A stretch of DNA of 64,000 bases from a bacterium (GCA_025774245.1 JALGWI010000008.1:2525-66524); one strand, 5' to 3'; positions 3 through 30,723 are shown, counted from the stretch's first letter. A program made the numbers and translations. The notes: generated from the sequence alone by a model not told the origin.

Positions 3-947
3 CACCTTGAGCCCTTCGTCGCCCGCGGGGACGTCCAGCTTCACGGCAGGCTCGACGAGTTCGCCCGCGGGCTCGAGCATCTCCAGAACTTCCTTGAGTA
101 CCAGCCGATCCGCCTCGTGGTGCCGGACCTCGCGACGCCGTTCGCGAAGGAGATTCGCGAGGCGGTCGCGGGGTACGCGTTCGTGCAGCTCGTGGCGGTC
201 CCCCTGAGATACCCGTTCGACCACGCCTCGGTCCTGGCACGTCACCTCGGTCTGCCGCACGACCTCGAGCACCCCGTGTGGGCGATCCCGACCGCGGGGA
301 TCTTCGCGGTCGACCGCGCGCTGACGTTCGGCAGGCCCGTCACCGAGCGTGTCGTCTCGCTGGGCGGACCGGCGGTCGACGAGCCCGTGCACGTCAGGAT
401 CCCCGTGGGCTACCCGATCGACGACGTGCTCGCGAATCACGTCTGCAGGGAGCCCGCCAGGGTCGTGTCGGGCGGGGTCTTTTCGGGCGACGCCATGGGC
501 GAGGACCGGAAGGGTCTCGACACGGAGACCGCCGGGCTCACCGTCCTCGCGGAGAACAGGAGTCGGCACCTCTTCGGGTTCGCGCGTCCCGGGTGGTCGC
601 GGCGCTCGTACGGGAGGACCTTCCTCTCCGGGATCCGCCCGACGTTCGCCGAGAGCATGAACACGGCGCTTCAGGGTGAGCTCCGCCCGTGCATAGCCTG
701 CGGGCAGTGCGTCGACGTCTGTCCCGCCGGGATCATGCCGAACGTGATCCACAAGTACCTCTACGCGGACGAGATCGAGAACACCATCGACGCCCGCGTG
801 GATCTCTGCTTCGAGTGCGGGCTCTGCTCGTACGTCTGCCCGTCGAAGATCGACCTCCGCCAGCAGTTCATCGACGCGAAGAGGGCGATCCAGGAAGAGC
901 TCGAGGCCATCGCGGAAGCCGAGGCCGCGCTGGAGGTGGAAGCTTGA
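3..947 (+). CDS. nqrA: Na+-translocating NADH:quinone oxidoreductase subunit A-like / RnfC-like C-terminal fragment. 5'-partial; the ORF is open to the window start.
   Basis: The frame is open from nt 3 with no upstream stop. The C-terminus has two CxxCxxCxxxCP ferredoxin motifs (CIACGQCVDVCP, CFECGLCSYVCP). It is the first gene of an operon whose downstream genes are NqrB-F-like. Confidence 0.65.
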   Translation, partial: HLEPFVARGDVQLHGRLDEFARGLEHLQNFLEYQPIRLVVPDLATPFAKEIREAVAGYAFVQLVAVPLRYPFDHASVLARHLGLPHDLEHPVWAIPTAGIFAVDRALTFGRPVTERVVSLGGPAVDEPVHVRIPVGYPIDDVLANHVCREPARVVSGGVFSGDAMGEDRKGLDTETAGLTVLAENRSRHLFGFARPGWSRRSYGRTFLSGIRPTFAESMNTALQGELRPCIACGQCVDVCPAGIMPNVIHKYLYADEIENTIDARVDLCFECGLCSYVCPSKIDLRQQFIDAKRAIQEELEAIAEAEAALEVEA

Positions 948-961
948 GGCTCGTCGCGAAC

Positions 962-2014
962 ATGCTCGATCGTGCGCGTCCCCTCTTCGAAGAGGGGGGC
1001 AGGTTCAATCTCCTCAAGCCCGTCTTCGACGCCGGAGACGCGCTCTTTCTCTCGCCGCTCGCGCGCACGTCGGTAGCACCCCACGTCCGCGATCCGCTCG
1101 ACGTCAAGCGCGTGATGACGACGGTGATCATCGCGGTCATCCCGTGCATCCTGGCTTCGGTCTACTTCTTCGGCCTGCGGATGCTCGCGATGTTCGTCGT
1201 CTCGTACGCGGTCGGGCTCTCCATTGAGGTCCTCTCCGCGATCGTCCGCAAGGAGGAGATCAACGAGGGCTTCTTCGTCACCGGCGCGCTCTTCCCGCTC
1301 ATCCTGCCGCCGGCGCTCCCGCTCTGGATGGTCGGGGTGGGCGTCGCCTTCGGGGTCATCGTCGGGAAGGAGATCTTCGGCGGGACCGGACGCAACGTCT
1401 TCAACCCGGCGCTCGTTGGGCGTGTGTTCCTCGCGCTCGCGTATCCGCGGGCGATGTCCGGAGCGTTCGTCGAGCCGGGAAGCGGACCGCTCGGACGCGT
1501 GACGCAGTACGCCGTCGATGCCGTCGCGACGGCCACGCCTCTCGCGGCCGCGAAGGGCGGCGACTTCGCCCCGATCCCGAACCTCCTCATCGGGAACGTG
1601 ACGGGAAGCGCGGGGGAGGTCTCGAGCATCGCGATCCTCCTGGGCGGCATCTTCCTCGTCGCCGTCGGGATAGCGAGCTGGCGCACGGTGTTCTCGATGC
1701 TCGGGTCGTTCGCGATCCTCTCCGCCGTCATGCACGGCGGGAGCCTCGAGATCGTCGGGTGGCACATGCTCGCCGGCGGGCTCCTCTTCGGCGCCTTCTT
1801 CATGGCGACCGATCCCGTGACGAGCCCGATGACGAACGCCGGGAAGTGGGCCTACGGGATCATCATCGGCGTGTCGGCCGCCCTCATCCGGAATCTCACC
1901 GGCTACGTCGAGGGCGTGATGTTCTCCATCCTTCTGGGGAACATCTTCGCGCCGGTCCTGGACGAGGCGTTCATCGCGGCGAGCCTGAGGAGGCTGCGTG
2001 AACAAAAAGCATAG
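962..2014 (+). CDS. nqrB: NADH:quinone oxidoreductase subunit B (NqrB/RnfD family)
   Basis: Polytopic membrane protein. The N-terminus LFEEGGRFNLLKPVFDAGDALFLSP...HVRDPLDVKRVMT resembles the cytoplasmic N-tail of Vibrio NqrB. The ATG at 962 lies 12 nt after a GAGG; the track ORF from 689 begins with an Arg-rich overlap with nqrA. Confidence 0.85.
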   Translation: MLDRARPLFEEGGRFNLLKPVFDAGDALFLSPLARTSVAPHVRDPLDVKRVMTTVIIAVIPCILASVYFFGLRMLAMFVVSYAVGLSIEVLSAIVRKEEINEGFFVTGALFPLILPPALPLWMVGVGVAFGVIVGKEIFGGTGRNVFNPALVGRVFLALAYPRAMSGAFVEPGSGPLGRVTQYAVDAVATATPLAAAKGGDFAPIPNLLIGNVTGSAGEVSSIAILLGGIFLVAVGIASWRTVFSMLGSFAILSAVMHGGSLEIVGWHMLAGGLLFGAFFMATDPVTSPMTNAGKWAYGIIIGVSAALIRNLTGYVEGVMFSILLGNIFAPVLDEAFIAASLRRLREQKA

Positions 2015-2636
2015 CGGATACGCGATCCTCTACGCGGCCGTCCTCGGTCTCGTCTGCGCGCTGGCTCTGACGGGCGTCGACCGCTTCACGGCGGAGAGGA
2101 AGGCGGCGAACGCGCAGGCGGAGGAGGTCCGGAACGTCCTCGGCGTTCTCGGCGTTCCGTTCGCCGCGGGCGCGAGCGCGGCAGAGCTCCTCGAGGTCTA
2201 CGAGTCGAACGTCCGGGACGAGGAGCGGAACGGCCGTGAGTTCTTCGTGTTCGATCATCCGTCTGCGGGCGAGCTCCTCGCGACGCGCTTCGAGGGGCCG
2301 GGTCTCTGGGGACCGGTCGAGGGGTTCCTCTGCCTCCGCGGAGATCGCGAGACGATCTACGCGGTCTCGTTCTACCGGCAGGAGGAGACGCCCGGGCTCG
2401 GCGGGGAGATCTCGTCCGACGCGTTCCAGGACCAGTTCCGCGGCAAGAAGATAGCGACGGCGGCGGGCGCGGGCATCCGCGTGGTCGCCGACGGGGCGGA
2501 CGCGCCGAACGAGGTCGACGCCATCGCCGGCGCGACGATGACGAGCGACAAGGTGCAGGCGATGCTCAACGAGACGATCGAGGAGATCGTCGGCGCGAAC
2601 GGCCGCCCGGCGAGGAGAGGTTCCCATGGCGGATAA
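1998..2636 (+). CDS. nqrC: NADH:quinone oxidoreductase subunit C (NqrC/RnfG family, FMN-binding)
   Basis: N-terminal transmembrane helix. Conserved flavinylation motif AIAGATMTSDKV. GTG start overlaps the nqrB 3' end. Confidence 0.8.
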   Translation: MNKKHSGYAILYAAVLGLVCALALTGVDRFTAERKAANAQAEEVRNVLGVLGVPFAAGASAAELLEVYESNVRDEERNGREFFVFDHPSAGELLATRFEGPGLWGPVEGFLCLRGDRETIYAVSFYRQEETPGLGGEISSDAFQDQFRGKKIATAAGAGIRVVADGADAPNEVDAIAGATMTSDKVQAMLNETIEEIVGANGRPARRGSHGG

Positions 2637-3306
2637 GAGCCCGGTCGCGTGCGTCACCTGCGTCTCCCGCGGCGGCGTCTGCGACGGGAAGGGCATCCAG
2701 ACGCTCAAGGACGGCGTCTGGGCCTCGAACCCGATCTCGATCCAGATCCTCGGGATCTGCTCCGCGCTTGCGGTCACGAACAGGCTCGAGAACTCGCTCG
2801 TGATGGGCGTGGCCCTCATCTTCGTCTGCGTCGGCTCGAACCTCTTCGTCTCGCTCCTCCGAAACGTCACGCCCCGGCGGATCCGCATGATCGCCGAGGT
2901 CGCGATCATCGCCACGTTCGTGATCGTCTTCGATCAGATCCTGAAGGCGTACTACTGGGAGATGTCGAAGCAGCTCGGCCCGTACGTCGGCCTCATCATC
3001 ACGAACTGCATCGTCATGGGGCGAGCCGAGGCCTTCGCGCTCCAGAACCGTCCGGTCGTCTCCATGGTCGACGGCCTGGCGAACGGAATCGGCTACGCCG
3101 TCGTCCTCGCGATCATCGGGTTCTTCCGCGAGCTCGCGGGGACAGGCGGGGTCGCAGGATTCCAGATCCTCTCGCTCGACTGGTACGTGCCCAATCAGCT
3201 GGCGGTCCTGGCGCCCGGCGCCTTCGTGGCGCTCGGTTTCCTGATCGCGCTCTTCAACTGGCTGAGCGGGGCGAACAAGGAGGAGAATGAGGGGAGCACG
3301 CCATGA
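2626..3306 (+). CDS. nqrD: NADH:quinone oxidoreductase subunit D (NqrD/RnfE family)
   Basis: PISIQILGICSALAVT matches the NqrD/RnfE N-terminal signature. Polytopic membrane protein. Has an unusual Cys-rich 25-aa N-terminal extension. Confidence 0.85.
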   Translation: MADKSPVACVTCVSRGGVCDGKGIQTLKDGVWASNPISIQILGICSALAVTNRLENSLVMGVALIFVCVGSNLFVSLLRNVTPRRIRMIAEVAIIATFVIVFDQILKAYYWEMSKQLGPYVGLIITNCIVMGRAEAFALQNRPVVSMVDGLANGIGYAVVLAIIGFFRELAGTGGVAGFQILSLDWYVPNQLAVLAPGAFVALGFLIALFNWLSGANKEENEGSTP

Positions 3307-3893
3307 CTGAGCTGTCGCCGTTCGTCATCCTGATTGCCGCGATCTTCACGAACAACATCCTGCTCGCGAACTTCCTCGGGATGTGCTCGTTTCTCGCGGT
3401 CTCGAAGAAGATCGAGACCGCGGCCGGGCTCGGCGCGGCCGTCATCTTCGTGACGACGGCCACGACGGCCATCAACTACGGCATCTACCATCACGTGCTC
3501 ACGCCCCTCGGTCTCACGTATCTCACGTTCATCGTCTTCATCGCGGTCATCGCCGCGTTCGTGCAGTTCGTGGAGATGTTCGTCGAGCGGTTCAGCCTCG
3601 GGCTCTACCACGCGCTCGGCATCTTCCTTCCGCTCATCACGGTCAACTGCGCCATCCTCGGCGCCTCGCTCTTCATGATCATCAGGAACTACACGTTCTG
3701 GCAGTCGGTCGCCTTCGGGTTCGGGGGCGGTGTCGGCTGGACGCTCGCGATCGTGCTCATCGCGGGCCTCCGGCAGAGGATGCGCTACTCCGACGTGCCG
3801 GTGCCCTTCCGCGGCGTCGCGATCGCGATGGTGATCACCGGCGTCATGGCGATGGCGTTCATGGGGTTCGCGGGAATGGTGAGGATCCAGTAG
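3303..3893 (+). CDS. nqrE: NADH:quinone oxidoreductase subunit E (NqrE/RnfA family)
   Basis: 196-aa polytopic membrane protein. ILLANFLGMCSFLAVSKK matches the NqrE/RnfA family. Confidence 0.9.
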   Translation: MTELSPFVILIAAIFTNNILLANFLGMCSFLAVSKKIETAAGLGAAVIFVTTATTAINYGIYHHVLTPLGLTYLTFIVFIAVIAAFVQFVEMFVERFSLGLYHALGIFLPLITVNCAILGASLFMIIRNYTFWQSVAFGFGGGVGWTLAIVLIAGLRQRMRYSDVPVPFRGVAIAMVITGVMAMAFMGFAGMVRIQ

Positions 3894-4988
3894 ATGGCTC
3901 TGCTCCTGCCGATACTCGTCTTCGGAGGTCTCCTCGTCGGGCTCACGATCGCCCTGTCGCTGGCGGAGCGCGTCCTCATCAACTACGGTGTCTGCAAGCT
4001 CGACGTCAACAACGGCGATCGCGAGTTCGAGGTCGACGGGGGGCAGACTCTCCTCTCGGCGCTGAACGAGTCGAAGGTCTTCATCCCCTCGGCGTGCGGC
4101 GGCCGCGGGTCGTGCGGACACTGCACCGTCACTGTCCTCTCGGGCGGCGGGCCGGTGCTCCCGACCGAGACGCCGTTCCTGACGAGGGTGGAGGTCAGGC
4201 AGGGCGTGCGCCTCGCCTGTCAGGTGAAGATCCGCGAGGACATCCGAATCAAGGTCCCGGAGGAGATCCTCAACGTCAAGATGTTCGCCGCGACCGTTTC
4301 GGCCAACCACCGGCTGACGCACGACCTCGTCGAGACCCACATGAGGCTCGACGAGCCGACCGAGATAGAGGCGAGGCCCGGGCAGTACGTGCAGCTGCAG
4401 GCTCCGGCGCCCGAGGGACCGGTCTACCGCGCGTACTCGATCAGCTCTCCCGCGTCCGTGAAGGACGAGGTCGAGCTCGTTGTGCGACTCGTTCCCGGCG
4501 GCATCGCGTCGACCTACATCCACGGCCTCGAGGAAGGCGACCAGGTCATCTTCACAGGACCGTACGGCGACTTCCGGATGAACGAGGAACCGGACGTCGA
4601 CATCGTCTGCATCGGCGGCGGATCGGGCATGGCGCCCTTGAAGAACCTCGTGCACACCGTGACCGCGCGCTGGCCGGAACGGAAGTGCTGGCTCTTCTTC
4701 GGCTGCCGCACGACGCAGGACATCTTCTACCTGGACGAGTTCCGGGAGCTCGAGAAGAAGAACCCGAACTTCCACGTCGTCTACGCGCTCTCCGATCCCC
4801 TCGAGGGCGAGGAGAAGTGGGAAGGGGAGACCGGGTTTATCCACCTGTCGGTCGACAAGCACCTCGACGTCAGCGACAGGAAGCGACAGGCGTTTCTGTG
4901 CGGCCCGCCGCCGATGGTCGAGGCCGTGATGAAGGTCCTCGAGGGCAAAGGGTTCAAGCCCGAGGACATCTACTACGACGAGTTCTAG
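3894..4988 (+). CDS. nqrF: NADH:quinone oxidoreductase subunit F (2Fe-2S ferredoxin plus FAD/NADH-binding)
   Basis: N-terminal transmembrane helix. 2Fe-2S motif CGGRGSCGHC...C. FAD motif RAYSISS. NAD motif GGGSGMAP. Confidence 0.9.
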   Translation: MALLLPILVFGGLLVGLTIALSLAERVLINYGVCKLDVNNGDREFEVDGGQTLLSALNESKVFIPSACGGRGSCGHCTVTVLSGGGPVLPTETPFLTRVEVRQGVRLACQVKIREDIRIKVPEEILNVKMFAATVSANHRLTHDLVETHMRLDEPTEIEARPGQYVQLQAPAPEGPVYRAYSISSPASVKDEVELVVRLVPGGIASTYIHGLEEGDQVIFTGPYGDFRMNEEPDVDIVCIGGGSGMAPLKNLVHTVTARWPERKCWLFFGCRTTQDIFYLDEFRELEKKNPNFHVVYALSDPLEGEEKWEGETGFIHLSVDKHLDVSDRKRQAFLCGPPPMVEAVMKVLEGKGFKPEDIYYDEF

Positions 4989-5000
4989 GGAGGTCGTCTC

Positions 5001-5453
5001 ATGGCCGTCACGACCGTTGCCTGCGTGCTGAGACGTGCCGCCGACTTCGAGTGCATCCTGATGGACTACTACCTCGGCCTCGCGGAGCAGACGACGCGGG
5101 AGGGGGTCAGGCTCCTCACCGACTACATGGCGCGGCACCGCCGCCGGCTCACCGAGGCGCTCGAGAGGTTCCCGGCCGGCGAGTACAAGAGGATCTCCGT
5201 CCTTCCGATCCGCTACGAGCCGGTCGCTGCGGAGTGCGACCACTTCTCGAGCAGGCCGCTGCCGCGGGACGCGACCGCGGCCGAGGTGCTCGATATCGCC
5301 ATCGAACTGGACGAGTGCCTGATATCGCTCTACCGTCAGGTGATCGAGCAGGACGTCGACCCCGAGGTGAAGGATCTCTTCGAGAGCCTCGTTCACCGTG
5401 AGGAGCGCGACGAGATTCAGCTCAAGAAGATCAAGGCGATGAACTACTTCTGA
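5001..5453 (+). CDS. Hypothetical protein, possibly a four-helix-bundle or ferritin-like fold
   Basis: 150-aa ORF with ordinary amino-acid composition, between nqrF and the polyprenyl synthase in the same orientation. No recognisable motif. Confidence 0.45.
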   Translation: MAVTTVACVLRRAADFECILMDYYLGLAEQTTREGVRLLTDYMARHRRRLTEALERFPAGEYKRISVLPIRYEPVAAECDHFSSRPLPRDATAAEVLDIAIELDECLISLYRQVIEQDVDPEVKDLFESLVHREERDEIQLKKIKAMNYF

Positions 5454-5472: not shown

Positions 5473-6480
5473 ATGCAGCTTGCTGACATATACAGACCCG
5501 TCCGGGACGATCTCGACGCCGTCGAGGGTGTGCTTCGCAAGAGCCTGACGGGCACGGGCGATGGATCGATGGCGGAGGTCGGTCGGTACGTCCTCGAGGC
5601 GGGAGGCAAGCGTATGCGACCTGCGCTCGTGCTCCTCTCGGCCGGGGCGTCCGGCGGCGACGCTGCATCGGGTGCCAGGCAGCATCTCGTAGGCCTGGCC
5701 GCCGCCGCGGAGCTCATCCACATGGCGTCGCTCCTTCACGACGACGTCGTAGACGATGCGCGCCTGCGGCACCACAACCCCACGATCAACACGAGGTGGG
5801 GCGACGACGTCTCGATCGCGCTCGGCGACTACCTCTACTCAATCGCGTTCCACCTCATCTCCATGAGCGACGATCCCGGCATCGTCCAGGTCATGAGTTC
5901 CGCCACCGTCGCCATGTGCGAGGGTCAGCTCCTCCAGATCTGCGAGCGGACGAACCTGAACCTCTCCAGGGAGCGCTACGTCGAGATCGTCGAGAAAAAG
6001 ACCGCGGCCCTCTTCGCCGCCTCGGCCGAGGTCGGCGCCTCGCTCTCGAGCCGCAAGGAGTCCCTGAGGCGAGCGCTCCGCGACTACGGATTGAGCCTCG
6101 GCATCTCGTTTCAGATCGTCGACGACTACCTCGACCTCATCGGGGACGAGAAGCGGATGGGAAAGGAGCCCGGTCAGGACATCGCGGCCGGCGAGGCGAC
6201 CCTCCCGATGCTGAACTTGTGGGAGATCCTCTCGGACGAGGAGCGGAAGGCGACGGCCGATCTTCTGTCGTCGCACACCGGCGCCGACGCACTCTCGATC
6301 ATCAGGGAGAAGCTCGTGAGCACCGGGGCGGCCTCGATGACAGAGAAGGCCGCGATATCCTACGCGAACTCGGCGCGCGAGAGCCTGAGCGTGCTCACCA
6401 ACTCCACCTACAAGGAGAGCCTCCTCGGGCTCGCGGACTTCGTGCTCGAGCGCGGGTTCGGGAGCGCGGGAAGGGCGTAG
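5473..6480 (+). CDS. Polyprenyl diphosphate synthase (trans-isoprenyl diphosphate synthase, IspB/HepT/DmkB-like)
   Basis: Two DDxxD motifs (LLHDDVVDD and IVDDYLD), the GKRMRP motif, 335 aa. Confidence 0.85.
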   Translation: MQLADIYRPVRDDLDAVEGVLRKSLTGTGDGSMAEVGRYVLEAGGKRMRPALVLLSAGASGGDAASGARQHLVGLAAAAELIHMASLLHDDVVDDARLRHHNPTINTRWGDDVSIALGDYLYSIAFHLISMSDDPGIVQVMSSATVAMCEGQLLQICERTNLNLSRERYVEIVEKKTAALFAASAEVGASLSSRKESLRRALRDYGLSLGISFQIVDDYLDLIGDEKRMGKEPGQDIAAGEATLPMLNLWEILSDEERKATADLLSSHTGADALSIIREKLVSTGAASMTEKAAISYANSARESLSVLTNSTYKESLLGLADFVLERGFGSAGRA

Positions 6481-6581
6481 CCGCACCGCGGGAGCGGCGG
6501 CGCCCAGGCCGCAGCGGGGCCGAGCACGCGGGCACCGAGGGCCCACCAGAGCCGACGCGCAGCCGCCGCAGGCCAACCCAC

Positions 6582-6989
6582 ATGAAGCCGAATCCTGCAG
6601 TCGATCCCACTTTCCTCAAGCCGACGGCCACCGACGTGATCCTCATCGCGGTGGTCCTCGTTCTTGCGACCGCCTCGATCGTCTGGGTGGGCCGCGCCGA
6701 GAGCCGGACACCGGCCGGATCAGCCGTGGCGAAGATCTACCACGGCAACGTGCTCATCGAGGAGGTCGCGCTCGATGTCGATCGCGACCTCGAGCTCACC
6801 GACGTCGGCATGAGGGTCGAGGTGAGGGAGGGGAGGATCCGGGTCGTCGAGTCGGACTGCCCCCAGCAGGTCTGCGTCCATGCCGGCTGGATCCGGCGGG
6901 GCCGACAGGTGATCGCCTGCGTTCCGAACAAGGTCCTCATCACGATCGAGTCGTCGGAGCCGCCGTTCCTCGACGCCATCGTCCACTGA
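6582..6989 (+). CDS. NusG domain II-like small membrane protein (EetA-like candidate)
   Basis: N-terminal transmembrane helix, then a domain with CPQQVCVHAGWI...IACVPNKVLITIE (four-Cys NusG_II-type motif). The ATG at 6582 lies inside the longer track ORF from 5796. Confidence 0.6.
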   Translation: MKPNPAVDPTFLKPTATDVILIAVVLVLATASIVWVGRAESRTPAGSAVAKIYHGNVLIEEVALDVDRDLELTDVGMRVEVREGRIRVVESDCPQQVCVHAGWIRRGRQVIACVPNKVLITIESSEPPFLDAIVH

Positions 6990-7020
6990 CGCGGGCGTCG
7001 CCGCCCGCACGGGATGCCTC

Positions 7021-8307
7021 ATGGCAGAGCCGGACACCACCGATCACCACGGCACGCACAGGATGGCCCTCCTGGTGGCGGTCGCGTGCGTGCTCCAGAT
7101 CGCGGAGTCGCTCCTCCCGCATCCGATTCCGGGGCTGCGCCTGGGGCTCGCCAACACCCTGACCCTGGTCGCACTCGTGATGTTCGGGTTCCGCTCCGCG
7201 CTCGAGCTCACCGTGCTCCGAACGATCCTCTCCTCGTTCATCATCGGGACGTTCATGTCGCCGGGCTTCATCCTGAGCTTCTCGGCGGGGATCGTGAGCA
7301 CGTTCGTCATGGGTCTCGTCTACTGGCTCGCGACGAGGCACCGTCGCCTCGGGCTCAGCATCATCGGGGTGAGCGTCGTCGGCGCGCTCGCGCACAACAC
7401 GGTGCAGCTCCTTCTCGCCTACGCGCTTCTCGTTCGGCATCCCGGCATCTTCATCTTCTTCCCGTGGCTCATGATCGGGGCCGTCGTCATGGGGTGGGTG
7501 ACCGGACTCGTTGCGGGCGGAGTCTGCCGGAGGATCGCCGCGCCGCACGAGCACACGGAGCGGCGGATGGCGGTCGGGTCGAAGCCGGCACCGATGGTGC
7601 CGCGCGACTACGTGCCCGGCGACTCCCTCGTTCACCGTGTTCCCTCTGTTGTCAAGATCGCGAGCGTCGTCGTCCTGGCAATCGTCATTCTCGTGTTCAC
7701 CGACCCCTGGCTCTATCTTGCGATCTTCGTTCTCCTTCTCGTCGCGGGCGCGGTCTCGGGCGCCTCGCCGGTCTTCTTCGCGAAACGAGTGGGGAGATAC
7801 GCCTTCCTCCTCGCGGTCGCATTCCTGTTGCCCGCATTCTTCAACTCGGGTACGCACGTCCTCGCGAGCGCGGGCCCGCTCCGGATCACAACCGAGGGGA
7901 TCCGCGCCGGATGTTTCTTCGCCGCGCGGATTCTCCTGCTCATGATGGCAAGCTCGCTCTGGGTTCGAACGACGTCGCCGCAGGAGATGACGCGGGGACT
8001 CACGAAACTCCTGTCACCCTTGCGCGCATTTGGCATTCCCGTCGAAAGGTCTGCCGCCATCGTCTCCGAGGCGTGGCTCGCGATTCCAGCGTTCTGGGGG
8101 ACGGTGACGGACACGTTCCATATCGAGAACCTGAAGAAGTTGCGGGGTATCCGCGACTTCGTTCCGCTGCTCACGGAACTCATCGCGGCTCTGTACGTCG
8201 AGGCAGAAGATGCGGGAATCGACGGCTCCGCTCAGGGCGGAAGCGAGACTGCGACCGGGAGAAACGGAGACCGGCTTGCGGCCGATGGAGGAGGAGGGAC
8301 CTCCTGA
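7021..8307 (+). CDS. Fusion protein: Gx transporter (ECF S-component-like, 'heptaprenyl diphosphate synthase component I' family) N-terminal domain plus an ECF transporter T-component (EcfT/CbiQ)-like C-terminal domain
   Basis: Residues 1-175 are a small polytopic protein with the Gx-family pattern. Residues ~190-428 begin with YVPGDSLVHRVPSVVKI, an EcfT N-terminal motif, followed by EcfT-like transmembrane helices. A single uninterrupted ORF. Confidence 0.7.
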   Translation: MAEPDTTDHHGTHRMALLVAVACVLQIAESLLPHPIPGLRLGLANTLTLVALVMFGFRSALELTVLRTILSSFIIGTFMSPGFILSFSAGIVSTFVMGLVYWLATRHRRLGLSIIGVSVVGALAHNTVQLLLAYALLVRHPGIFIFFPWLMIGAVVMGWVTGLVAGGVCRRIAAPHEHTERRMAVGSKPAPMVPRDYVPGDSLVHRVPSVVKIASVVVLAIVILVFTDPWLYLAIFVLLLVAGAVSGASPVFFAKRVGRYAFLLAVAFLLPAFFNSGTHVLASAGPLRITTEGIRAGCFFAARILLLMMASSLWVRTTSPQEMTRGLTKLLSPLRAFGIPVERSAAIVSEAWLAIPAFWGTVTDTFHIENLKKLRGIRDFVPLLTELIAALYVEAEDAGIDGSAQGGSETATGRNGDRLAADGGGGTS

Positions 8308-8367
8308 GGGCCTGAAAGGGCCCGCCCGGCCGCTTCGCCACGACAACGCCCGCTTGGGGATACGCCC

Positions 8368-9393
8368 ATGGAGAGAAGGACCATCGGAGCTGCGCTCGTC
8401 TGCGCCGCGCTCGCCGGCGCCGCCGGCGTCGGGCTCCCCTCGTGCTCGTCGGACCGCAGCGGCTCCTCCTCGGATGACGTCTCCGACAAGACGCGTTTCA
8501 TGATGGGGACGTACGTCACCATCCACGTCCGGGGGCCGGCGGAGAGCGCGATCCCGGCGATCGAAGCGGCTCTCGACCGGATGGAGGAGATCGACAGGAA
8601 GTTCAACGTCACGAACCCCGAGAGCCCCCTCCACGCGTTCAATCACGATGGCACTCCGGTCACCGACGAGGAGATCCTGGCGGTCGTCGATGAGGCGATG
8701 AAGATGACTGGCCTCACGGACGGAGCGTTCGACGCGACGATCTCTCCTCTGATCGAGCTCTGGGGTTTCTACGATGAGACCCCCGCCCTTCCTGAGCATC
8801 AGAAGATCGAGTCGTGCATGGAGAGGATCGGCCACGAGCACGTGGTTCTCCTGGACGGCGTGCTCAGGAAGACGAAGGAGGGCGTTGGGATCGACCTGGG
8901 CGGCATAGCCAAGGGTTACGCCGTCGAGGAGGGCGCCGAGGTTCTGCGCGGCCTGGGTCTGACGGAGGCCCTCATCGACGCCGGGGGCGATATCTACGCG
9001 CTCGGTTCCCGGGGCGGAGAGCCCTGGAAGGTCGGCGTCAGAAGTCCCCGCGGGGAGGAGCTTCTCGGGTACATCGAGGTCGAGGACATGGCCGTCATGG
9101 GCTCGGGCGACTATGAGAGGTTCTTCATCCACGAGGGCAGGCGATACCATCACATCTTCGATCCCAGGACGGGATATCCGGCCGAAGGTCTGTCGGGAAT
9201 CACCGTCCTATCCTCCGAGCCGATGACGGCGGACGCCTGGGCGACCGCGCTCTTCGTCATGGGGCCTGAGGAAGGTCTCCGGGCGGCCGAGGAGATGCCG
9301 GACCTCGAGGTCATCATGGTCACGACATCGGGCGAAGTGCTCCACACGAGCGGGATGGGGAACGAGCTCAGGGCGCCGCCCGAAAACCAGTAG
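8368..9393 (+). CDS. apbE: FAD:protein FMN transferase (ApbE family) lipoprotein
   Basis: Lipobox LPSC after the signal peptide. ApbE motifs TRFMMGTYVTI, GIAKGYAV, DAGGDIY and GSGDYERFF. Confidence 0.85.
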   Translation: MERRTIGAALVCAALAGAAGVGLPSCSSDRSGSSSDDVSDKTRFMMGTYVTIHVRGPAESAIPAIEAALDRMEEIDRKFNVTNPESPLHAFNHDGTPVTDEEILAVVDEAMKMTGLTDGAFDATISPLIELWGFYDETPALPEHQKIESCMERIGHEHVVLLDGVLRKTKEGVGIDLGGIAKGYAVEEGAEVLRGLGLTEALIDAGGDIYALGSRGGEPWKVGVRSPRGEELLGYIEVEDMAVMGSGDYERFFIHEGRRYHHIFDPRTGYPAEGLSGITVLSSEPMTADAWATALFVMGPEEGLRAAEEMPDLEVIMVTTSGEVLHTSGMGNELRAPPENQ

Positions 9394-9416
9394 GAGAGAA
9401 TCGGGAGGAGGGTTTC

Positions 9417-10136
9417 TTGAAGCTGAGACTGAGTTCCATCGGATTCCTGTCGCTCGCGATACTCATCGCGATCGCCGGGCTCTCGTGGGCCGAAGAGGCC
9501 GCGACCGAGAAGACGAAGGGCGAGACGGCCGTCGAGGAGTACTTCGGTGACGGGGCCGAGATCATCCACAAGGCGCTCGAGCTGGTCGATCCGAAGCTCG
9601 CCGCCCTGGAGGAGCAGCTCGGGTTCGCGCTCGTCGCTGAGCCCGACGAGGACGAGGAGGTTGAGCGGAAGGCGACCTTCGACTACTACTTCGTGAAGAG
9701 CGGGGAGAAGGTCGGCGCGGCAACCGTCGTCTCCGCGAGGGGGAAGTGGGCGCCCGTGACGTATCTCGTGGTGCTCGGCTTCGACGCCGCGGTGACCCGC
9801 GTGGAGGTCATCGAGCACAGCGAGAAGCGCGGCAAGGACATCGAGGGCAGGACCTTCCTCGAGCAGTTCGACGGAAAGACGTCCGAAGACGACATCACGC
9901 TCACGACGGACATCACCGCGGTGAGCGGCGCGACGGTCTCGTCGCGGAGTGCCACCGAGGCGGTCCGGGCGGCGATCGTCGTCTACGAGGAGTTGATCCT
10001 CAAGGGCGGAGCTGAGAAGGACAAGAAGACCGCGGACGAGCACGGTGCGGCCTGCGATCACGGCGCCAAGGACGACCACGACGATCATGGCGCCAGGGAC
10101 GACCACGACGACCACTCCGAGTCGAAGGACGAGTAG
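9417..10136 (+). CDS. Secreted FMN-binding domain protein (NqrC/RnfG-type FMN_bind) with a His/Asp-rich C-terminal tail
   Basis: Signal peptide. Flavinylation-type motif DITAVSGATVSS. C-terminal HGAACDHGAKDDHDDHGARDDHDDHSE. TTG start 5 nt after GGGAGGAGG. Confidence 0.7.
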   Translation: MKLRLSSIGFLSLAILIAIAGLSWAEEAATEKTKGETAVEEYFGDGAEIIHKALELVDPKLAALEEQLGFALVAEPDEDEEVERKATFDYYFVKSGEKVGAATVVSARGKWAPVTYLVVLGFDAAVTRVEVIEHSEKRGKDIEGRTFLEQFDGKTSEDDITLTTDITAVSGATVSSRSATEAVRAAIVVYEELILKGGAEKDKKTADEHGAACDHGAKDDHDDHGARDDHDDHSESKDE

Positions 10137-10173
10137 CGATCGTCGGCGCACCGCTTCATGTCAGCGAAACGAG

Positions 10174-10202
10174 AAGGGCCGCGGCACGATGCCGCGGCCC
10201 TT
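10174..10202. terminator. Bidirectional hairpin terminator between convergent genes
   Basis: Perfect 12-bp GC-rich stem AAGGGCCGCGGC / GCCGCGGCCCTT with an ACGAT loop, between the + strand gene ending at 10136 and the - strand gene ending at 10228. Confidence 0.5.
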
Positions 10203-10227
10203 TGACCATCACGCGCCGGTCGCGCCG

Positions 10228-12741
10228 TTACTCCGGCAGCACGTCAGTCGTCGCTTCGAGCTGGAACAGGTTATCGATCCCCGTATTCCCGAGGCTGAGG
10301 AACCGGTGGAGCCCCAGGCCCGCCGTCACCTCCTCGAGGCGCCTGTCGAAGAACGACCGCTTCTCGGTGCAGTAGGCGATGTTCGCCCTCTCCCTCTTCA
10401 CGCCGATCTTCTCGCACGCGTAGTCGATCGTCGCCGAGAGGCCGCCGGACTCGTCGACGAGTCCGAGCTCGAGTGCCCGGGCACCCACGTAGACCCTGCC
10501 CTCCGCGAGCTCGCGCAGCCGGTCGGCGCTCATCCCTCGGCTGTCCGATGCCTTCTCGATGAAGTCGTCGTAGAACCACTCCATGGCCTCCTGCGCCATC
10601 TCGAGTTCCTTCTCCGTGAGATGCCGCGTGAGGGACCACTGGTCGGAGTGCTCCCCGCGCTTGATCGTCTCGTGCGTCGCGTCGATCTTGTCGTAGAGCT
10701 CGGCCAGGACCGGCTTCATCCCCATGACGCCGATGCTCCCCGTGATCGTGAGCGGCTGAACGAAGATCTTCTCAGCGGCGACTGCGATGTAGTAGCCGCC
10801 CGATGCGGCGACGTCGGCCATCGACACGATCAGGGGCTTCTCCTTCGCGAGCTTGACCGTCTCGTTCCAGATGATGTCGGAGGCGAGGCCGCTCCCTCCT
10901 CCGCTGTCGACTCGGAGGATCACCGCCTTGACGCGCGAGTCCTTCCGCACCTTCTTGAGCGCCGCCACGAGTGTCTCCGCGCCGATCGAGCGCGCGCCGG
11001 AGACGGGGTCGGTGCCGCCCTTGCCTTCGTGGATCGTCCCGTAGGCTCCCACGACCGCGATCGTCGGCCCGTAGGTCCAGTCGTACACCTTGTCCTGCCA
11101 CTTCCGCACGCTGACGACGCCGATGTTGTCGGGATCGTCCGGTACCTTCTCCCCGGTGAACTCCCTCGCGGCGACCTTCGCTTCCTCGTAGAAGCCGAGG
11201 CGATCGACCAGGCCGGCCTCGAGCGCCGCCGGCGGCGTGAAGAGCCGTCCGTTGCAGAGCTCCTCGGCCTTGCTCCGAATGATCCCGCGTCCCTCGACGA
11301 TCGACTCGACGATGGCCTCGTAGCTGGAGTCGACCAGTTCCTGCACCTCCACGCGCTGCTCGGCGGTCAGGGAATCGGGGCCGAGCGAATGGAAGGTGCT
11401 CTTGTACTTCCCGGCCGTCATGTAGTCCCACTCGATGCCGAGCTTCTCGGTGGTGCCCGTGAACCGCATGATCGTCCTGTGGGCCCCGAGGCCGTCGATT
11501 CCGCTCGCCGGGTTCATGACGACGAGGTCGGCGGCGGTGGCCAGGTAGTACTCCTGCGAGCTCGCGCCGTGCTCGAGGTACACGACGATCTTCTTCCCCT
11601 TGACGTCGCGCGCCCGCACGATCTCGTCGCGGATGTCCTGCGAGAGCGCCGACGGGCCACCGAAGAACCCGCGGCCGAGCCCCTTGATGCGGAACAGGAT
11701 GCAGTCGATCGAGCTCTGATCCGCCGCTCGCCGGATGTCCCTGACGATCCGCTGCGCGCTCGCCTCGGGCCCGCCGAAGAGGCTCCAGCCCGGCGACGTG
11801 TCGGAGAGCGGGCCGGTGATCTTGATTTCGGCCACCTGGTGCGACGGCTTGATGACGCTCCTCATACGCTGTCCCGTGAAGAGCACGTCGTAGGTCATGA
11901 CGCGATCGATCGACGGCGTGAAGCTCCTGGCCGAGGCGCCGGCCCCGACGTGCGTTCCTCCGAGCCAGAGCCCGAGGCTCGTCTCTTCCTCGCGCGCTCC
12001 CTCATACCGGTACGACTTCATCGAGCCCCGGAGGATCAGTCCGTTCATGATCTCGGTCTCGAGCCCGCCGACGTACGACGCCTCGTCCCAGTCCCAGCCC
12101 CGCGGAACGCTGGCGTCCGCCATGAGCGTGAGGCGGTTCCCGAACGGACGGACGGCGAGGCCGAACACGTAGGACATGGTCGTCGACTGGCACGAGCAAT
12201 CGGCGGGCAAGATCGGGTCGCTCAGGTAGGTAGGCTCCGAGAGGTTCCTGAGCGTGGCGCCGAGCGACAGGACGCTCGACGGACGGATCATGAGTCCCAC
12301 GTCCCACGTGCCCGACTTCTTGCGGGTGCCGAACTGCGGCCTGAACCAGCGGTAGTCGAAGCCGAGACCCCACGAACGCGACTGCCCGAAGGCGAAGCCG
12401 AGGGTGTAGGTGTCCATGGCGTTTCCGCCCATGCGGAGCCCGGAGATGTCAGGATCGTCGTACGGTTCCCAGAGGTACTGCCGGTCGTAACCGAACCCGA
12501 AGCTGCCGAGCTTGACCGCGGCCGAGCCTCCCGCCGACTTCGAGCCGGCGGTCGAGTACGACACGTAGAGGCTCTGTTCGGGGTAGAGCGCGAGCCCGCC
12601 CGGGTTCAGGAAGACCGCCGTCGCGTCGTCGTTGACGGCGACCGAACTCGCTCCCCGCAACCAGGTGTTCGGGAGGATGTCCGCCTGGGCTCCTCCGGCG
12701 AAGACCGCCGCCACGATGAGCACTGCTGCAATCGTCCGCAT
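10228..12741 (-). CDS. sppA: Signal peptide peptidase SppA (two S49 domains, 67K type) fused to a ~300-aa N-terminal beta-barrel-like (PorV/FadL-like) domain
   Basis: Signal peptide. The N-terminal domain has alternating aromatic/Gly beta-strand patterns (LGFAFGQS, WGLGFDYRW). Two S49 peptidase domains lie in the C-terminal 550 aa. Confidence 0.8.
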   Translation of the reverse strand: MRTIAAVLIVAAVFAGGAQADILPNTWLRGASSVAVNDDATAVFLNPGGLALYPEQSLYVSYSTAGSKSAGGSAAVKLGSFGFGYDRQYLWEPYDDPDISGLRMGGNAMDTYTLGFAFGQSRSWGLGFDYRWFRPQFGTRKKSGTWDVGLMIRPSSVLSLGATLRNLSEPTYLSDPILPADCSCQSTTMSYVFGLAVRPFGNRLTLMADASVPRGWDWDEASYVGGLETEIMNGLILRGSMKSYRYEGAREEETSLGLWLGGTHVGAGASARSFTPSIDRVMTYDVLFTGQRMRSVIKPSHQVAEIKITGPLSDTSPGWSLFGGPEASAQRIVRDIRRAADQSSIDCILFRIKGLGRGFFGGPSALSQDIRDEIVRARDVKGKKIVVYLEHGASSQEYYLATAADLVVMNPASGIDGLGAHRTIMRFTGTTEKLGIEWDYMTAGKYKSTFHSLGPDSLTAEQRVEVQELVDSSYEAIVESIVEGRGIIRSKAEELCNGRLFTPPAALEAGLVDRLGFYEEAKVAAREFTGEKVPDDPDNIGVVSVRKWQDKVYDWTYGPTIAVVGAYGTIHEGKGGTDPVSGARSIGAETLVAALKKVRKDSRVKAVILRVDSGGGSGLASDIIWNETVKLAKEKPLIVSMADVAASGGYYIAVAAEKIFVQPLTITGSIGVMGMKPVLAELYDKIDATHETIKRGEHSDQWSLTRHLTEKELEMAQEAMEWFYDDFIEKASDSRGMSADRLRELAEGRVYVGARALELGLVDESGGLSATIDYACEKIGVKRERANIAYCTEKRSFFDRRLEEVTAGLGLHRFLSLGNTGIDNLFQLEATTDVLPE

Positions 12742-16150: not shown

Positions 16151-16414
16151 GTTTTCCTTCCTCGCCCGAGTCCCGGGGCGCGGTTCACCTCAGCACGACG
16201 AGCGGTAATGAACGCGAGGAAGGGAACCGGTCTCATGCGGACCACCTCCGTTCGCAGTAGGAATCGCTCTCGGGTTCTCTAAGGACTCCTCTATTGTAGA
16301 CCGTTCGGGCGCGTGGCGGAAGGGAACTTCGCAGGCGCCCCACGCCGGCGGGAGGCATCTGCGCTGCCTCCGCCCTTGACGGCCGCCCCCCGCGGTGCTA
16401 GCACTGATGGCGAG

Positions 16415-18327: not shown

Positions 18328-18378
18328 CTTCAGCCAACACGGCTCAAGCGTTCGTACCCTGCTGCGCGAGGCCAGGAT

Positions 18379-28735: not shown

Positions 28736-28897
28736 ACGTCCCGCGATCGCGCCGCCCGGCGCACCCGCCCGCTTTCCGCTTGCTCTCGTCTCACGCCGTA
28801 GTGTCTAATGAGAGGATCGCCGCTCGCGCCGGTCGTTCCTCGCGGTGGACGCGTCCCGCGCCGCCGCGATCGCCGCACCCGACTCCGGAGTTCCGCG

Positions 28898-30706: not shown

Positions 30707-30723
30707 GCCGCGAGGGGAATCGG

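What the first reader, a model, noticed from the sequence alone, without database searches (positions are those of the whole stretch)
3..4988. Nqr operon whose A subunit retains RnfC-type 2x[4Fe-4S] ferredoxin motifs while the terminal subunit is a canonical NqrF: a possible Rnf-to-Nqr evolutionary intermediate
Gene content and order is A-B-C-D-E-F. B has the NqrB-type cytoplasmic N-tail. F has the full NqrF architecture (transmembrane helix, 2Fe-2S, FAD, NADH), not RnfB. Yet the C-terminal region of the first gene contains two complete CxxCxxCxxxCP motifs (CIACGQCVDVCP, CFECGLCSYVCP). These are characteristic of RnfC and were lost in classical NqrA, which binds no cofactor. Na+-NQR is thought to have arisen from Rnf in the Chlorobi/Bacteroidetes (FCB) lineage by swapping RnfB for NqrF and stripping RnfC of its cofactors. 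A complex combining NqrF with an Fe-S-retaining A subunit would fit such an intermediate, or be a functional hybrid. The 5' part of the gene lies outside the window.
Basis: partly seen in the sequence, partly recalled or inferred. Interest (0 to 1): 0.6.

Follow-up and report, generated by a model that had tools for sequence, protein, structure and literature searches.

The report
NQR pump with iron-sulfur NqrA
This operon encodes an NQR-type NADH-driven membrane ion pump whose A subunit, cofactor-free in textbook NQR, keeps the two iron-sulfur clusters of its Rnf ancestor; this form is widespread, I found no description of it, and it documents how NQR arose from Rnf.

Summary
Window 3-4988 holds a co-directional A-B-C-D-E-F operon. 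The 5'-truncated A gene carries two complete CxxCxxCxxxCP motifs (nt 690-725 and 807-842).

A full-length homologue aligns end to end with Vibrio NqrA. It has NqrA-type sequence where RnfC binds FMN and NAD ('LGAWQFF' for GxGGAxFP, 'HLDPH' for ECEPY). So A is an NqrA-like protein that kept only the 2x[4Fe-4S] ferredoxin domain.

B has the NqrB N-terminal tail. C, D and E keep the flavinylation threonine and the 2Fe-2S cysteines. F is NqrF-like but lacks two NqrF-specific insertions.

This is not a one-off. All eight cysteines are invariant in 58 relatives, and the representative search gave 193 clusters (50% identity) at E<1e-30. The same operon recurs in Eisenbacteria, Planctomycetota and Phycisphaerae MAGs.

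Neighbour-joining trees place the window clade between Rnf and canonical NQR. Cofactor-less NqrA is nested (95-100% bootstrap) inside a clade of NqrAs with two or one clusters.

Function is inferred: NADH to quinone, with A's clusters in the exit path. I found no paper describing this. Verdict: new variant of a known kind.

The parts
3..947 (+). 3' part (314 of about 469 codons) of the A subunit gene: NqrA-like body plus a C-terminal 2x[4Fe-4S] ferredoxin domain
   Evidence: The 5' end was recovered from the 99%-identical contig L023.
690..725 (+). First cluster motif, CIACGQCVDVCP
   Evidence: The Cys are invariant in 58 relatives and align with RnfC motif 1.
807..842 (+). Second cluster motif, CFECGLCSYVCP
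962..2014 (+). B subunit (350 aa), NqrB-like. It has the cytoplasmic N-terminal tail and a flavinylation motif DAVATAT (nt 1517-1537). It lacks the V. cholerae NqrB loop 84-128.
   Evidence: It scores 254.8 bits to V. cholerae NqrB and 168.7 to C. tetanomorphum RnfD.
1998..2636 (+). C subunit (212 aa, GTG start): periplasmic FMN_bind protein with flavinylation motif AGATMT (nt 2526-2543)
   Evidence: NqrC TIGR01938 scores 120.6 bits; rnfG scores 54.9.
2626..3306 (+). D subunit (226 aa). Cys45 and Cys128 lie at the positions that ligate the intramembrane 2Fe-2S.
   Evidence: It passes the NqrD cutoffs (NF006777 251.1 > 235; TIGR01939 245.2 > 244.85).
3303..3893 (+). E subunit (196 aa). Cys28 and Cys116 lie at the positions that ligate the intramembrane 2Fe-2S.
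   Evidence: nqrE scores 234.9 bits and rnfA 220.8.
3894..4988 (+). F subunit (364 aa): TM helix, plant-type 2Fe-2S (C68, C74, C77, C109), FAD (RAYS) and NADH (GGGSGMAP) domains. It is NqrF-like but lacks two canonical NqrF insertions.
   Evidence: TIGR01941 scores 276.2 bits (cutoff 295).
5001..5453 (+). 150-aa helical-bundle protein directly after F. It is conserved after F in close relatives and is a possible accessory component of unknown role.
   Evidence: 79% and 58% identity in L001 and L002. Ferritin-like signals are weak.
5473..6480 (+). Polyprenyl diphosphate synthase (quinone side-chain synthesis), a recurrent neighbour of these operons
   Evidence: Also seen next to related operons in L002, L024, L025 and L026.
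6576..10136 (+). Flavin-supply and flavinylation genes: NusG_II protein, Hpre_diP_synt_I+CbiQ (EcfT-like) fusion, ApbE flavin transferase (8368-9393), and an extra FMN_bind protein

Best explanation
The window opens inside the first gene of an nqrABCDEF-type operon. The host is an FCB-group, Eisenbacteria-like bacterium. The operon encodes a membrane redox pump of the RNF/NQR family.

Shown by sequence:
- All six subunits are present in NQR order.
- F is an NqrF-type NADH dehydrogenase module (TM helix, 2Fe-2S, FAD, NADH site), not RnfB.
- D and E keep the four Cys of the intramembrane 2Fe-2S. C and B keep the ApbE flavinylation threonines. B has the NqrB N-terminal tail that anchors A.
- A has an NqrA-type body that has lost the RnfC FMN/NAD site but keeps a complete, strongly conserved 2x[4Fe-4S] ferredoxin domain.

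Inferred mechanism: NADH reduces FAD in F. Electrons then pass through F 2Fe-2S, D/E 2Fe-2S, C-FMN, B-FMN and B-riboflavin, as in Vibrio NQR and Rnf, driving Na+ or H+ export. From riboflavin they enter the two [4Fe-4S] clusters of A. These occupy the position they have in RnfC and serve as the exit wire to the acceptor. The acceptor is most likely a (mena)quinone bound at or near the A/B interface.

Evolutionary reading: this is a deep-branching, widespread NQR lineage. It has already swapped RnfB for NqrF and lost the RnfC flavin site, but it has not lost the clusters. It also has not gained the NqrB and NqrF insertions of canonical NQR. Cofactor-free NqrA is a later, derived state reached through one-cluster forms.
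For: Architecture and motifs.

A is NqrA-like without an FMN/NAD site:
- End-to-end alignment to V. cholerae NqrA.
- Pfam NQRA_2nd hit, no Complex1_51K hit.
- Motif table.
- AlphaFold model (pLDDT 79.5, pTM 0.83). Its best Foldseek hits are V. cholerae NqrA (TM 0.76-0.78), then RnfC (TM 0.69-0.71).

The clusters are under selection:
- 8/8 Cys are invariant in 58 sequences.
- All 128 retrieved relatives have two motifs.
- All full-length top-150 representatives, down to 26% identity, have two motifs, except three one-cluster forms (and P0166, an apparently defective entry with none). Those three retain exactly the four Cys needed for the surviving cluster.

The operon is conserved. A(FeS)-B-C-D-E-F occurs in the window, L001, L002, L005, L007, L025 and L027, plus the one-cluster L026.

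Phylogeny:
- B+D+E tree: Rnf 100%, window clade 100%, canonical NQR plus L007 100%.
- A tree: RnfC, then RnfC-like variants, then the window clade, then a clade of 37 (29 two-cluster, 3 one-cluster, 5 canonical) with 95-100% bootstrap. This holds with the ferredoxin domain removed.
- NCBIfam scores form a gradient.
- F lacks the two NqrF insertions and B lacks the NqrB loop.

Quinone link: polyprenyl synthase, UbiA or UbiE lie beside the operon in the window, L002, L024, L025 and L026. L002 also has a Psr/NrfD-type quinol-dependent reductase nearby.

Flavinylation: ApbE is nearby.

[quoted passage not shown] Stepwise loss was predicted (PMC4014512).
Against: - There is no biochemical evidence. 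Cluster binding, the electron path, the acceptor and the coupling ion are all inferred.
- Canonical NQR reduces quinone directly from riboflavin in NqrB without any cofactor in A, so A's clusters need not be on the main path.
- Low-potential [4Fe-4S] clusters downstream of a riboflavin could be energetically awkward unless potentials are tuned.
- The trees are neighbour-joining on corrected p-distances, with few canonical NQR and Rnf references. Rooting on Rnf is an assumption.
- Bootstrap for the window's own clade in the A tree is only 50-70%.
- The Ilyobacter A-less cluster is unstable (55% with the canonical side, 44% with Rnf).
- Only 64 kb of the genome was seen, so an rnfB elsewhere cannot be excluded.
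- The ferredoxin domain of the AlphaFold model has modest confidence (pLDDT ~50-80), and the linker 341-385 is unmodelled.
- The paper library is incomplete, so a prior description may exist.
Confidence: 0.7

Rival explanations
1. The clusters are bound but off-pathway. Electrons go from B-riboflavin straight to quinone, as in Vibrio NQR. A's 2x[4Fe-4S] domain survives as a structural element, an electron buffer, or an O2/redox sensor.
For: Canonical NQR works with a cofactor-less A (PMC12174285). Clusters were lost repeatedly and in either order within otherwise canonical operons, with no other visible change to the operon (P0208/P0245 against P0252). V. cholerae NqrA still keeps two vestigial Cys with no cluster.
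Against: Invariance of all eight ligands across a very diverse family argues for a demanding function. The one-cluster forms keep precisely a complete ligand set. In RnfC the homologous clusters are the obligatory wire from riboflavin (PMC12174285).
Confidence: 0.25
2. This is a third functional class. A's clusters deliver electrons to an acceptor other than membrane quinone, such as a soluble redox protein. The conserved 150-aa ferritin-like-fold protein encoded after F is one candidate partner. The enzyme would then be an NADH:X oxidoreductase pump.
For: The RnfC-type output wire is retained while its flavin end-point is lost. This leaves an exposed terminal cluster (inference). A conserved extra gene follows F in the window, L001 and L002. 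In a relative (L024) the input module is also exchangeable, with NuoE/F-like genes in place of F. A precedent exists in the D. toluolica Tol2-type Rnf, whose RnfC lacks the NAD module and has an unknown partner (PMC5109826).
Against: The 150-aa gene is missing in L005, L027 and the more distant operons. It has no recognisable metal or redox motif. Quinone-biosynthesis genes are the recurrent neighbours. B keeps the NqrB N-tail that contributes to the quinone/inhibitor site in Vibrio (the site assignment is from my background knowledge).
Confidence: 0.12
3. It is really an Rnf complex. An rnfB lies elsewhere in the genome, and the NqrF-like gene is an unrelated neighbour.
For: A carries RnfC-type clusters. 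B also passes the broad rnfD 'subfamily' cutoff (241 > 207). E scores almost equally on nqrE and rnfA. The whole genome was not seen.
Against: F is translationally packed directly after E (E ends at 3893, F starts at 3894). It occupies the same position in eight independent loci. A lacks the NAD/FMN site that defines Rnf output. B, C, D and F score higher on Nqr than on Rnf models. No RnfB-like ORF is in the window.
Confidence: 0.03
4. It is a recent chimera. An rnfC 3' end (ferredoxin domain) was recombined onto an nqrA in an otherwise ordinary NQR operon.
For: Taken alone, the C-terminal domain scores best on RnfC models (TIGR01945 stretch 225-298).
Against: The whole operon is divergent, not just A. 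The A tree has the same topology with the ferredoxin domain removed. The trait is shared by more than a hundred 50%-identity clusters forming a ladder, not a tip.
Confidence: 0.03

Closest known systems
[quoted passage not shown]
   Same: The six genes are in the same order. F is an NqrF-type input subunit (TM helix, 2Fe-2S, FAD, NADH). B has the NqrB N-terminal tail. C and B have flavinylation sites, and D/E have the 2Fe-2S cysteines. The A body is NqrA-like and lacks FMN/NAD motifs. The best sequence and fold matches of A, B, C and F are to the Vibrio subunits.
   Different: A has a complete 2x[4Fe-4S] domain where Vibrio NqrA has none. F lacks two insertions (~34 and ~15 aa) of canonical NqrF. 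B lacks the ~45-aa loop 84-128. C is shorter. Only D passes its NCBIfam Nqr equivalog cutoff.
Rnf ferredoxin:NAD+ oxidoreductase (RnfCDGEAB; A. woodii 9ERI, C. tetanomorphum 7ZC6, A. vinelandii 8AHX)
   Same: It has a homologous membrane core. The C-terminal ferredoxin domain with two CxxCxxCxxxCP motifs is at the same place as in RnfC. B and F lack the NQR-specific insertions.
   Different: There is no RnfB; NqrF takes its place. A lacks GxGGAxFP and ECEPY, so it has no FMN or NAD+ site. The electron donor is therefore NADH at the opposite end of the chain.
Two- and one-cluster NqrA in otherwise canonical NQR operons (P0188/L025, P0223/L007, P0208/L026; uncultured, unnamed)
   Same: These are FeS-bearing NqrAs in ABCDEF operons with NqrF.
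   Different: They have canonical-length NqrB (395-404 aa) and NqrF (407-411 aa). Some pass the NqrA equivalog cutoffs. They group with canonical NQR at 95-100%. The window clade is a deeper, separate lineage.
Desulfobacula toluolica Tol2-type Rnf (as described in PMC5109826)
   Same: It is a variant of the family in which the C/A subunit has lost the NADH-binding module, while an NAD(H) site sits on the input-side subunit.
   Different: There the input subunit is an enlarged RnfB polyferredoxin and RnfC also lacks the SLBB domain. Here the input is NqrF and A keeps the full NqrA domain set. I did not examine those sequences.
A-less NqrBCDEF clusters (Pseudothermotoga, Clostridium ultunense: PMC5924567; Ilyobacter polytropus pILYOP01, L016)
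   Same: They have a short NqrF-like F (about 370 aa), which is the closest named relative of the window's F (346 bits against 206-254 for canonical NqrF). B has no NQR-specific loop.
   Different: They have no A gene, and B lacks the N-terminal tail. The window operon has both.

Membership tests
Na+-NQR (NqrABCDEF) | Six subunits encoded in the order A-B-C-D-E-F | tested here: met
Na+-NQR (NqrABCDEF) | NqrF input subunit: N-terminal TM helix, plant-type 2Fe-2S, FAD and NADH domains | tested here: met
   However, TIGR01941 scores 276.2, below the cutoff of 295, and two canonical insertions are absent.
Na+-NQR (NqrABCDEF) | NqrA without redox cofactors | tested here: not met
   Two complete, invariant CxxCxxCxxxCP motifs. 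Full-length relatives score 199-216 bits on NF003761 (cutoff 450) and 128-141 on TIGR01936 (cutoff 321).
Na+-NQR (NqrABCDEF) | NqrB with a cytoplasmic N-terminal extension and a flavinylated Thr | tested here: met
   The tail aligns to V. cholerae NqrB 11-83, and the DAVATAT motif is present. The equivalog cutoffs are narrowly missed (329.5 against 349.9).
Na+-NQR (NqrABCDEF) | NqrC FMN site and NqrD/E cysteines for the intramembrane 2Fe-2S | tested here: met
   AGATMT in C; D C45/C128; E C28/C116. D passes the NqrD cutoffs.
Na+-NQR (NqrABCDEF) | NADH:quinone oxidoreductase activity coupled to Na+ export | not testable with these tools
   There is only contextual support, from neighbouring quinone-biosynthesis genes.
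Rnf (RnfABCDGE) | RnfB polyferredoxin subunit in the operon | tested here: not met
   No RnfB-like ORF is in the window. F occupies that slot in all related operons.
Rnf (RnfABCDGE) | RnfC with an FMN/NAD(H) site (Complex1_51K; GxGGAxFP, ECEPY) | tested here: not met
   Complex1_51K scores 15.7 bits (cutoff 31.2). The motifs are replaced by NqrA-type sequence.
Rnf (RnfABCDGE) | RnfC C-terminal 2x[4Fe-4S] ferredoxin domain | tested here: met
A-less NqrBCDEF-type clusters | No A/C-type peripheral subunit, and B without the N-terminal tail | tested here: not met
   A is present and B has the tail. Contrast with L016.

The most novel reading that the evidence does not exclude
A's two [4Fe-4S] clusters may be a working electron exit. 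They could lead to an acceptor site inherited from the RnfC flavin pocket: a quinone bound in A, or a non-quinone soluble acceptor. FeS-NqrA complexes would then be a functionally distinct third branch of the RNF/NQR pump family. The 'useless' NqrA of pathogens' NQR would be the fossil of that output module.
Probability: 0.2. Interest if true: 0.85.

Novelty: new variant of a known kind. Interest (0 to 1): 0.62.

Why it matters
NqrA is the one NQR subunit with no assigned function. Reviews up to 2025 state that it has no cofactor (PMC12174285). The Rnf-to-NQR transition has so far been a hypothesis without extant intermediates (PMC4014512).

This operon and its many relatives supply a graded living series, with the window clade as the third step:
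1. RnfC with FMN and two clusters.
2. RnfC-like proteins with a decaying flavin loop.
3. An NqrA-like body with two clusters, plus a short NqrF.
4. Canonical NQR with a two-cluster NqrA.
5. One-cluster forms.
6. Cofactor-free NqrA.

The series orders the evolutionary steps. RnfB was replaced and the flavin site lost first. The NqrB and NqrF insertions came next. Cluster loss came last and happened repeatedly.

The series also makes the original role of NqrA experimentally testable. It shows that annotation pipelines mislabel these A subunits as generic '4Fe-4S dicluster domain-containing protein'. Finally, the input module looks exchangeable, since NuoE/F-like genes replace F in L024.

Tried and rejected
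It returned one locus (L001), so organism-level sampling stayed thin.
- An alignment-based homologue search, meant to name taxa carrying FeS-NqrA, was swamped by Vibrio NqrA. It yielded only a full-length V. cholerae reference.
- The listing of cluster members gave almost no organism names.
- Biopython distance/NJ bootstrapping timed out twice. I replaced it with my own numpy NJ. An early reading of support values after re-rooting was unreliable, so I recomputed support as bipartition frequencies.
- I considered the downstream 150-aa protein as an NqrM-like maturation factor or a redox partner. It has no significant family, no ExxH pairs and only weak ferritin-like fold matches. It is not homologous to the Ilyobacter ORF in the same position. 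Its role remains open.
- Eight literature searches found no description of Fe-S-bearing NqrA. The key anammox complexome paper (BBA 2016) is not in the library and could not be checked.
- The readings 'Rnf with unrelated NqrF-like neighbour' and 'recent chimera' were rejected on operon conservation and congruent trees.

Full report
**1. What is in the sequence**

The + strand, frame 3, is open from base 3 to a stop at 945-947. The 314 translated residues end in two complete ferredoxin motifs: CIACGQCVDVCP (nt 690-725) and CFECGLCSYVCP (nt 807-842). Pfam recognises a 4Fe-4S dicluster domain (E about 1e-9 to 1e-10) preceded by the NqrA SLBB domain.

Five more genes follow, tightly packed on the same strand:

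| Subunit | Coordinates | Pfam domains |
|---|---|---|
| B | 962-2014 | NQR2_RnfD_RnfE |
| C | 1998-2636 | FMN_bind |
| D | 2626-3306 | Rnf-Nqr |
| E | 3303-3893 | Rnf-Nqr |
| F | 3894-4988 | Fer2 + FAD_binding_6 + NAD_binding_1 |

The window has 67% G+C, and these frames have GC3 of 0.81-0.95, so they are real genes.

**2. The subunits one by one**

*B.* It scores 254.8 bits against V. cholerae NqrB and 168.7 against C. tetanomorphum RnfD. Its residues 7-79 align with the NqrB N-terminal tail (11-83), whereas RnfD matches start at residue 37. About 45 residues of Vibrio NqrB (84-128) have no counterpart. The flavinylation motif is DAVATAT.

*C.* It is closer to NqrC than to RnfG and keeps the AGATMT flavinylation site.

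*D and E.* They keep the two Cys each that ligate the intramembrane 2Fe-2S. D is the only subunit that passes its Nqr equivalog cutoffs.

*F.* It aligns with V. cholerae NqrF from residue 4 (211.7 bits), including the TM helix and the 2Fe-2S cysteines. It lacks two insertions present in every canonical NqrF examined: about 34 aa before the RAYS motif and about 15 aa after it. It scores just under the TIGR01941 cutoff (276 against 295).

*A.* The 5' end is available from a 99%-identical JGI contig (L023). The true start is MKLRGGHNIRLAGRP..., giving about 469 aa. The upstream gene is divergent, so A is the first gene of the operon.

- A full-length relative (P0002, 66% identical over the part within the window) aligns end to end with V. 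cholerae NqrA (E=6e-25) and with RnfC only in pieces.
- It hits Pfam NQRA_2nd and NQRA_SLBB above threshold. Complex1_51K, the RnfC flavin domain, scores only 15.7 bits (cutoff 31.2).
- In a 128-sequence alignment the RnfC FMN loop G[LI]GGA[GT]FP is replaced by 'LGAWQFF', matching the NqrA signature (Vibrio 'SGLWTAF'). ECEPY is replaced by HL[DE]P[HF] (Vibrio 'DTNPL').
- An AlphaFold model (pLDDT 79.5, pTM 0.83) matches V. cholerae NqrA best (TM 0.76-0.78), then RnfC (TM 0.69-0.71).

So A is an NqrA-type protein that has lost the flavin/NAD site but kept the RnfC-type cluster domain.

**3. A family, not an oddity**

- The homologue search returned 907 proteins. The best 120 (52-99% identical) all carry NqrA domains plus Fer4. 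Their names, where given, are either NqrA (JGI) or '4Fe-4S dicluster domain-containing protein' from Planctomycetota, Phycisphaerae and Eisenbacteria MAGs.
- All 128 sequences then in hand, apart from one 53-residue fragment, have two full motifs.
- In 58 aligned relatives (54% mean column identity) all eight Cys are invariant.
- A search of 1.84 billion 50%-identity representatives gave 193 clusters at E<1e-30. Every full-length member of the top 150, down to 26% identity, has two motifs, apart from three one-cluster exceptions and P0166. P0166 has no motif and matches the query only over residues 4-284, so it is probably a defective or chimeric entry.
- The three exceptions are instructive. 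P0208 and P0245 lost Cys I-III of motif 1 but keep its fourth Cys plus an intact motif 2. P0252 shows the mirror pattern. By the established ligation scheme of 2x[4Fe-4S] ferredoxins, each keeps exactly one complete cluster.
- NCBIfam scores form a gradient. Window-clade proteins score about 170-216 bits on the best NqrA model and about 130-150 on rnfC. The two-cluster P0188 passes the TIGR01936 NqrA cutoff. The one-cluster P0208 and P0245 pass both NqrA cutoffs.

**4. Operon context elsewhere**

- A(FeS)-B-C-D-E-F, with a 363-367-aa F, recurs in L001, L002, L005 and L027.
- More NQR-like operons carry two-cluster A (L007, L025) or one-cluster A (L026). They have canonical NqrB (395-404 aa) and NqrF (407-411 aa), and L025 and L026 are followed by ApbE.
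- One relative (L024) has A-B-C-D-E followed by NuoE/NuoF-like genes instead of F, so the input module is exchangeable.
- More RnfC-like A homologues (P0211, P0226, P0227) still hit Complex1_51K. Where neighbouring genes could be seen (L021), they sit in a different operon type.
- Ilyobacter polytropus has B-C-D-E-F with a short F, no A and no N-tail on B. This matches the A-less clusters reported in PMC5924567.
- Quinone-related genes recur beside these operons: polyprenyl synthase (window, L002, L024, L025, L026), UbiA (L002, L024) and UbiE (L024). L002 also has a Psr/NrfD-type reductase.
- In the window, the operon is followed by a conserved 150-aa protein, polyprenyl synthase, NusG_II, an Hpre_diP_synt_I+CbiQ fusion, ApbE and a further FMN_bind protein.
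- No RnfB or second rnf/nqr set occurs in the 64 kb window.

**5. Phylogeny**

I took reference operons from the annotated collections. NQR came from Parabacteroides, Prevotella, Leisingera and Neisseria. Rnf came from E. coli, Parabacteroides, Fusobacterium, Subdoligranulum and Persicobacter.

*Concatenated B+D+E* (691 columns; NJ, gamma-corrected distances, 500 bootstraps):
- Rnf 100%.
- Window clade (window, L001, L002, L005) 100%.
- Canonical NQR plus the FeS-A operon L007 100%.
- Ilyobacter unstable.

*A/RnfC tree* of 128 sequences rooted on RnfC. It forms a ladder:
1. RnfC.
2. RnfC-like proteins with a degenerate FMN loop.
3. The window clade (about 35-43 representatives; 50-70% bootstrap).
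4. A clade of 37 with 95-100% bootstrap under two distance corrections, with or without the ferredoxin domain. It holds 29 two-cluster proteins, 3 one-cluster proteins and, nested inside, the 5 canonical cofactor-less NqrAs.

These are distance trees with limited outgroups. The Rnf root is an assumption taken from PMC4014512.

**6. Organism**

The RlmN encoded in the window is 74% identical to that of the MAG contig that also carries L001. Its best named relatives are Candidatus Eisenbacteria (58-66%). A PorV-like gene is also present. The host is therefore an uncultured FCB-group bacterium. This is the superphylum in which PMC4014512 placed the origin of NQR.

**7. Interpretation**

The sequence evidence supports an NQR-type pump with NADH input through F and the conserved flavin/2Fe-2S relay.

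The exit is the new part. The RnfC-type clusters are retained under strong purifying selection although the flavin they used to feed is gone. I consider it most likely (about 0.5 within an overall 0.7) that they carry electrons from B-riboflavin to the acceptor. The probable acceptor is menaquinone at the A/B interface, given the gene neighbourhood and the conserved NqrB tail.

The main rival is that they are off-pathway, serving a structural, buffering or sensing role. A soluble acceptor is a less likely alternative, and I ranked two further rivals lower still: an Rnf complex with an unrelated NqrF-like neighbour, and a recent chimera. None of this is testable in silico.

On evolution, the characters give an order of events:
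1. RnfB was replaced by an NqrF-like reductase, and the RnfC flavin/NAD site was lost. The window clade has reached this stage.
2. Insertions were gained in NqrB and NqrF (L007 and L025 type).
3. The clusters were then lost, repeatedly and one at a time (P0208, P0245, P0252), ending in the cofactor-free NqrA of Proteobacteria and Bacteroidota.

**8. Novelty**

The 2014 evolutionary study, the 2022 Rnf structure paper and a 2025 review all state that NqrA lacks cofactors. Eight full-text searches found no report of Fe-S-bearing NqrA. The library is incomplete, so prior mention cannot be excluded.

I rate it a new variant of a known kind, of real interest to RNF/NQR specialists. The main limits are the lack of experimental evidence and the distance-based trees.

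Noticed in passing
window 5001-5453 (+): A 150-aa protein sits immediately after the F gene. It is 79% and 58% identical to the ORFs in the same position in L001 and L002, and it is absent from L005 and L027. The single-sequence AlphaFold model (pLDDT 73) is a helical bundle with weak ferritin-like/Dps matches (E>=0.01). Pfam Rubrerythrin scores only E=0.003, below cutoff, and there are no ExxH pairs. Its role is unknown.
   Followed up: partly
window 6576-10136 (+): A flavin-trafficking and flavinylation cluster follows the operon: a NusG_II protein, an Hpre_diP_synt_I fused to a CbiQ/EcfT-like domain, an ApbE lipoprotein, and an extra FMN_bind protein with weak RnfG similarity. This suggests a second extracytosolic flavoprotein system or dedicated cofactor supply.
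   Followed up: partly
L024:8001-15414: A relative of the window's A subunit (P0164) heads an A-B-C-D-E cluster. It is followed by four NuoE/NuoF/HydB-like genes (Fer2+2Fe-2S_thioredx; 2Fe-2S_thioredx+Complex1_51K; NADH_4Fe-4S+Fer4; Fer2) instead of NqrF. UbiA, UbiE and polyprenyl synthase lie upstream. This appears to be a third kind of input module on the same core.
   Followed up: no
L016 (Ilyobacter polytropus pILYOP01) 5983-10308: A cultured fusobacterium carries B-C-D-E-F with a short NqrF (it passes TIGR01941), no A gene and a B without the N-terminal tail. PGAP annotates the subunits with a mix of Rnf and Nqr names.
   Followed up: partly
L021:148-4278; L020; L022: These loci carry RnfC-like proteins with two clusters and a degenerate FMN loop (ALGTAGLP, GGGKGGFP and similar). 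In L021, the only one with enough flanking genes to read, the gene order is unusual: RnfC-like, RnfD-like, a Fer2+PF04060 'FeS' protein, then a Fer2 protein. These may be further uncharacterised members of the RNF/NQR family.
   Followed up: no
P0208, P0245, P0252 (L026 for P0208): These NqrA proteins keep exactly one complete [4Fe-4S] ligand set, and either cluster can be the survivor. P0208 and P0245 pass the NCBIfam NqrA cutoffs, and P0208 sits in a canonical nqrABCDEF-apbE operon.
   Followed up: partly
window 15053-16189 (-) and 55185-56222 (+): RlmN is closest to Candidatus Eisenbacteria MAGs, and a PorV (type IX secretion)-like gene is present. The window comes from an uncultured FCB-group bacterium. 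A 99%-identical strain occurs in JGI metagenome 3300033142.
   Followed up: partly
window 18328-21471, 28802-32067 (+): The window holds two sigma-54-dependent regulators. One is a 1047-aa TPR-rich activator. The other is a PAS histidine kinase / response regulator pair. A sigma-54 activator pair also lies upstream of the related operon in L002. No link to nqr regulation was examined.
   Followed up: no
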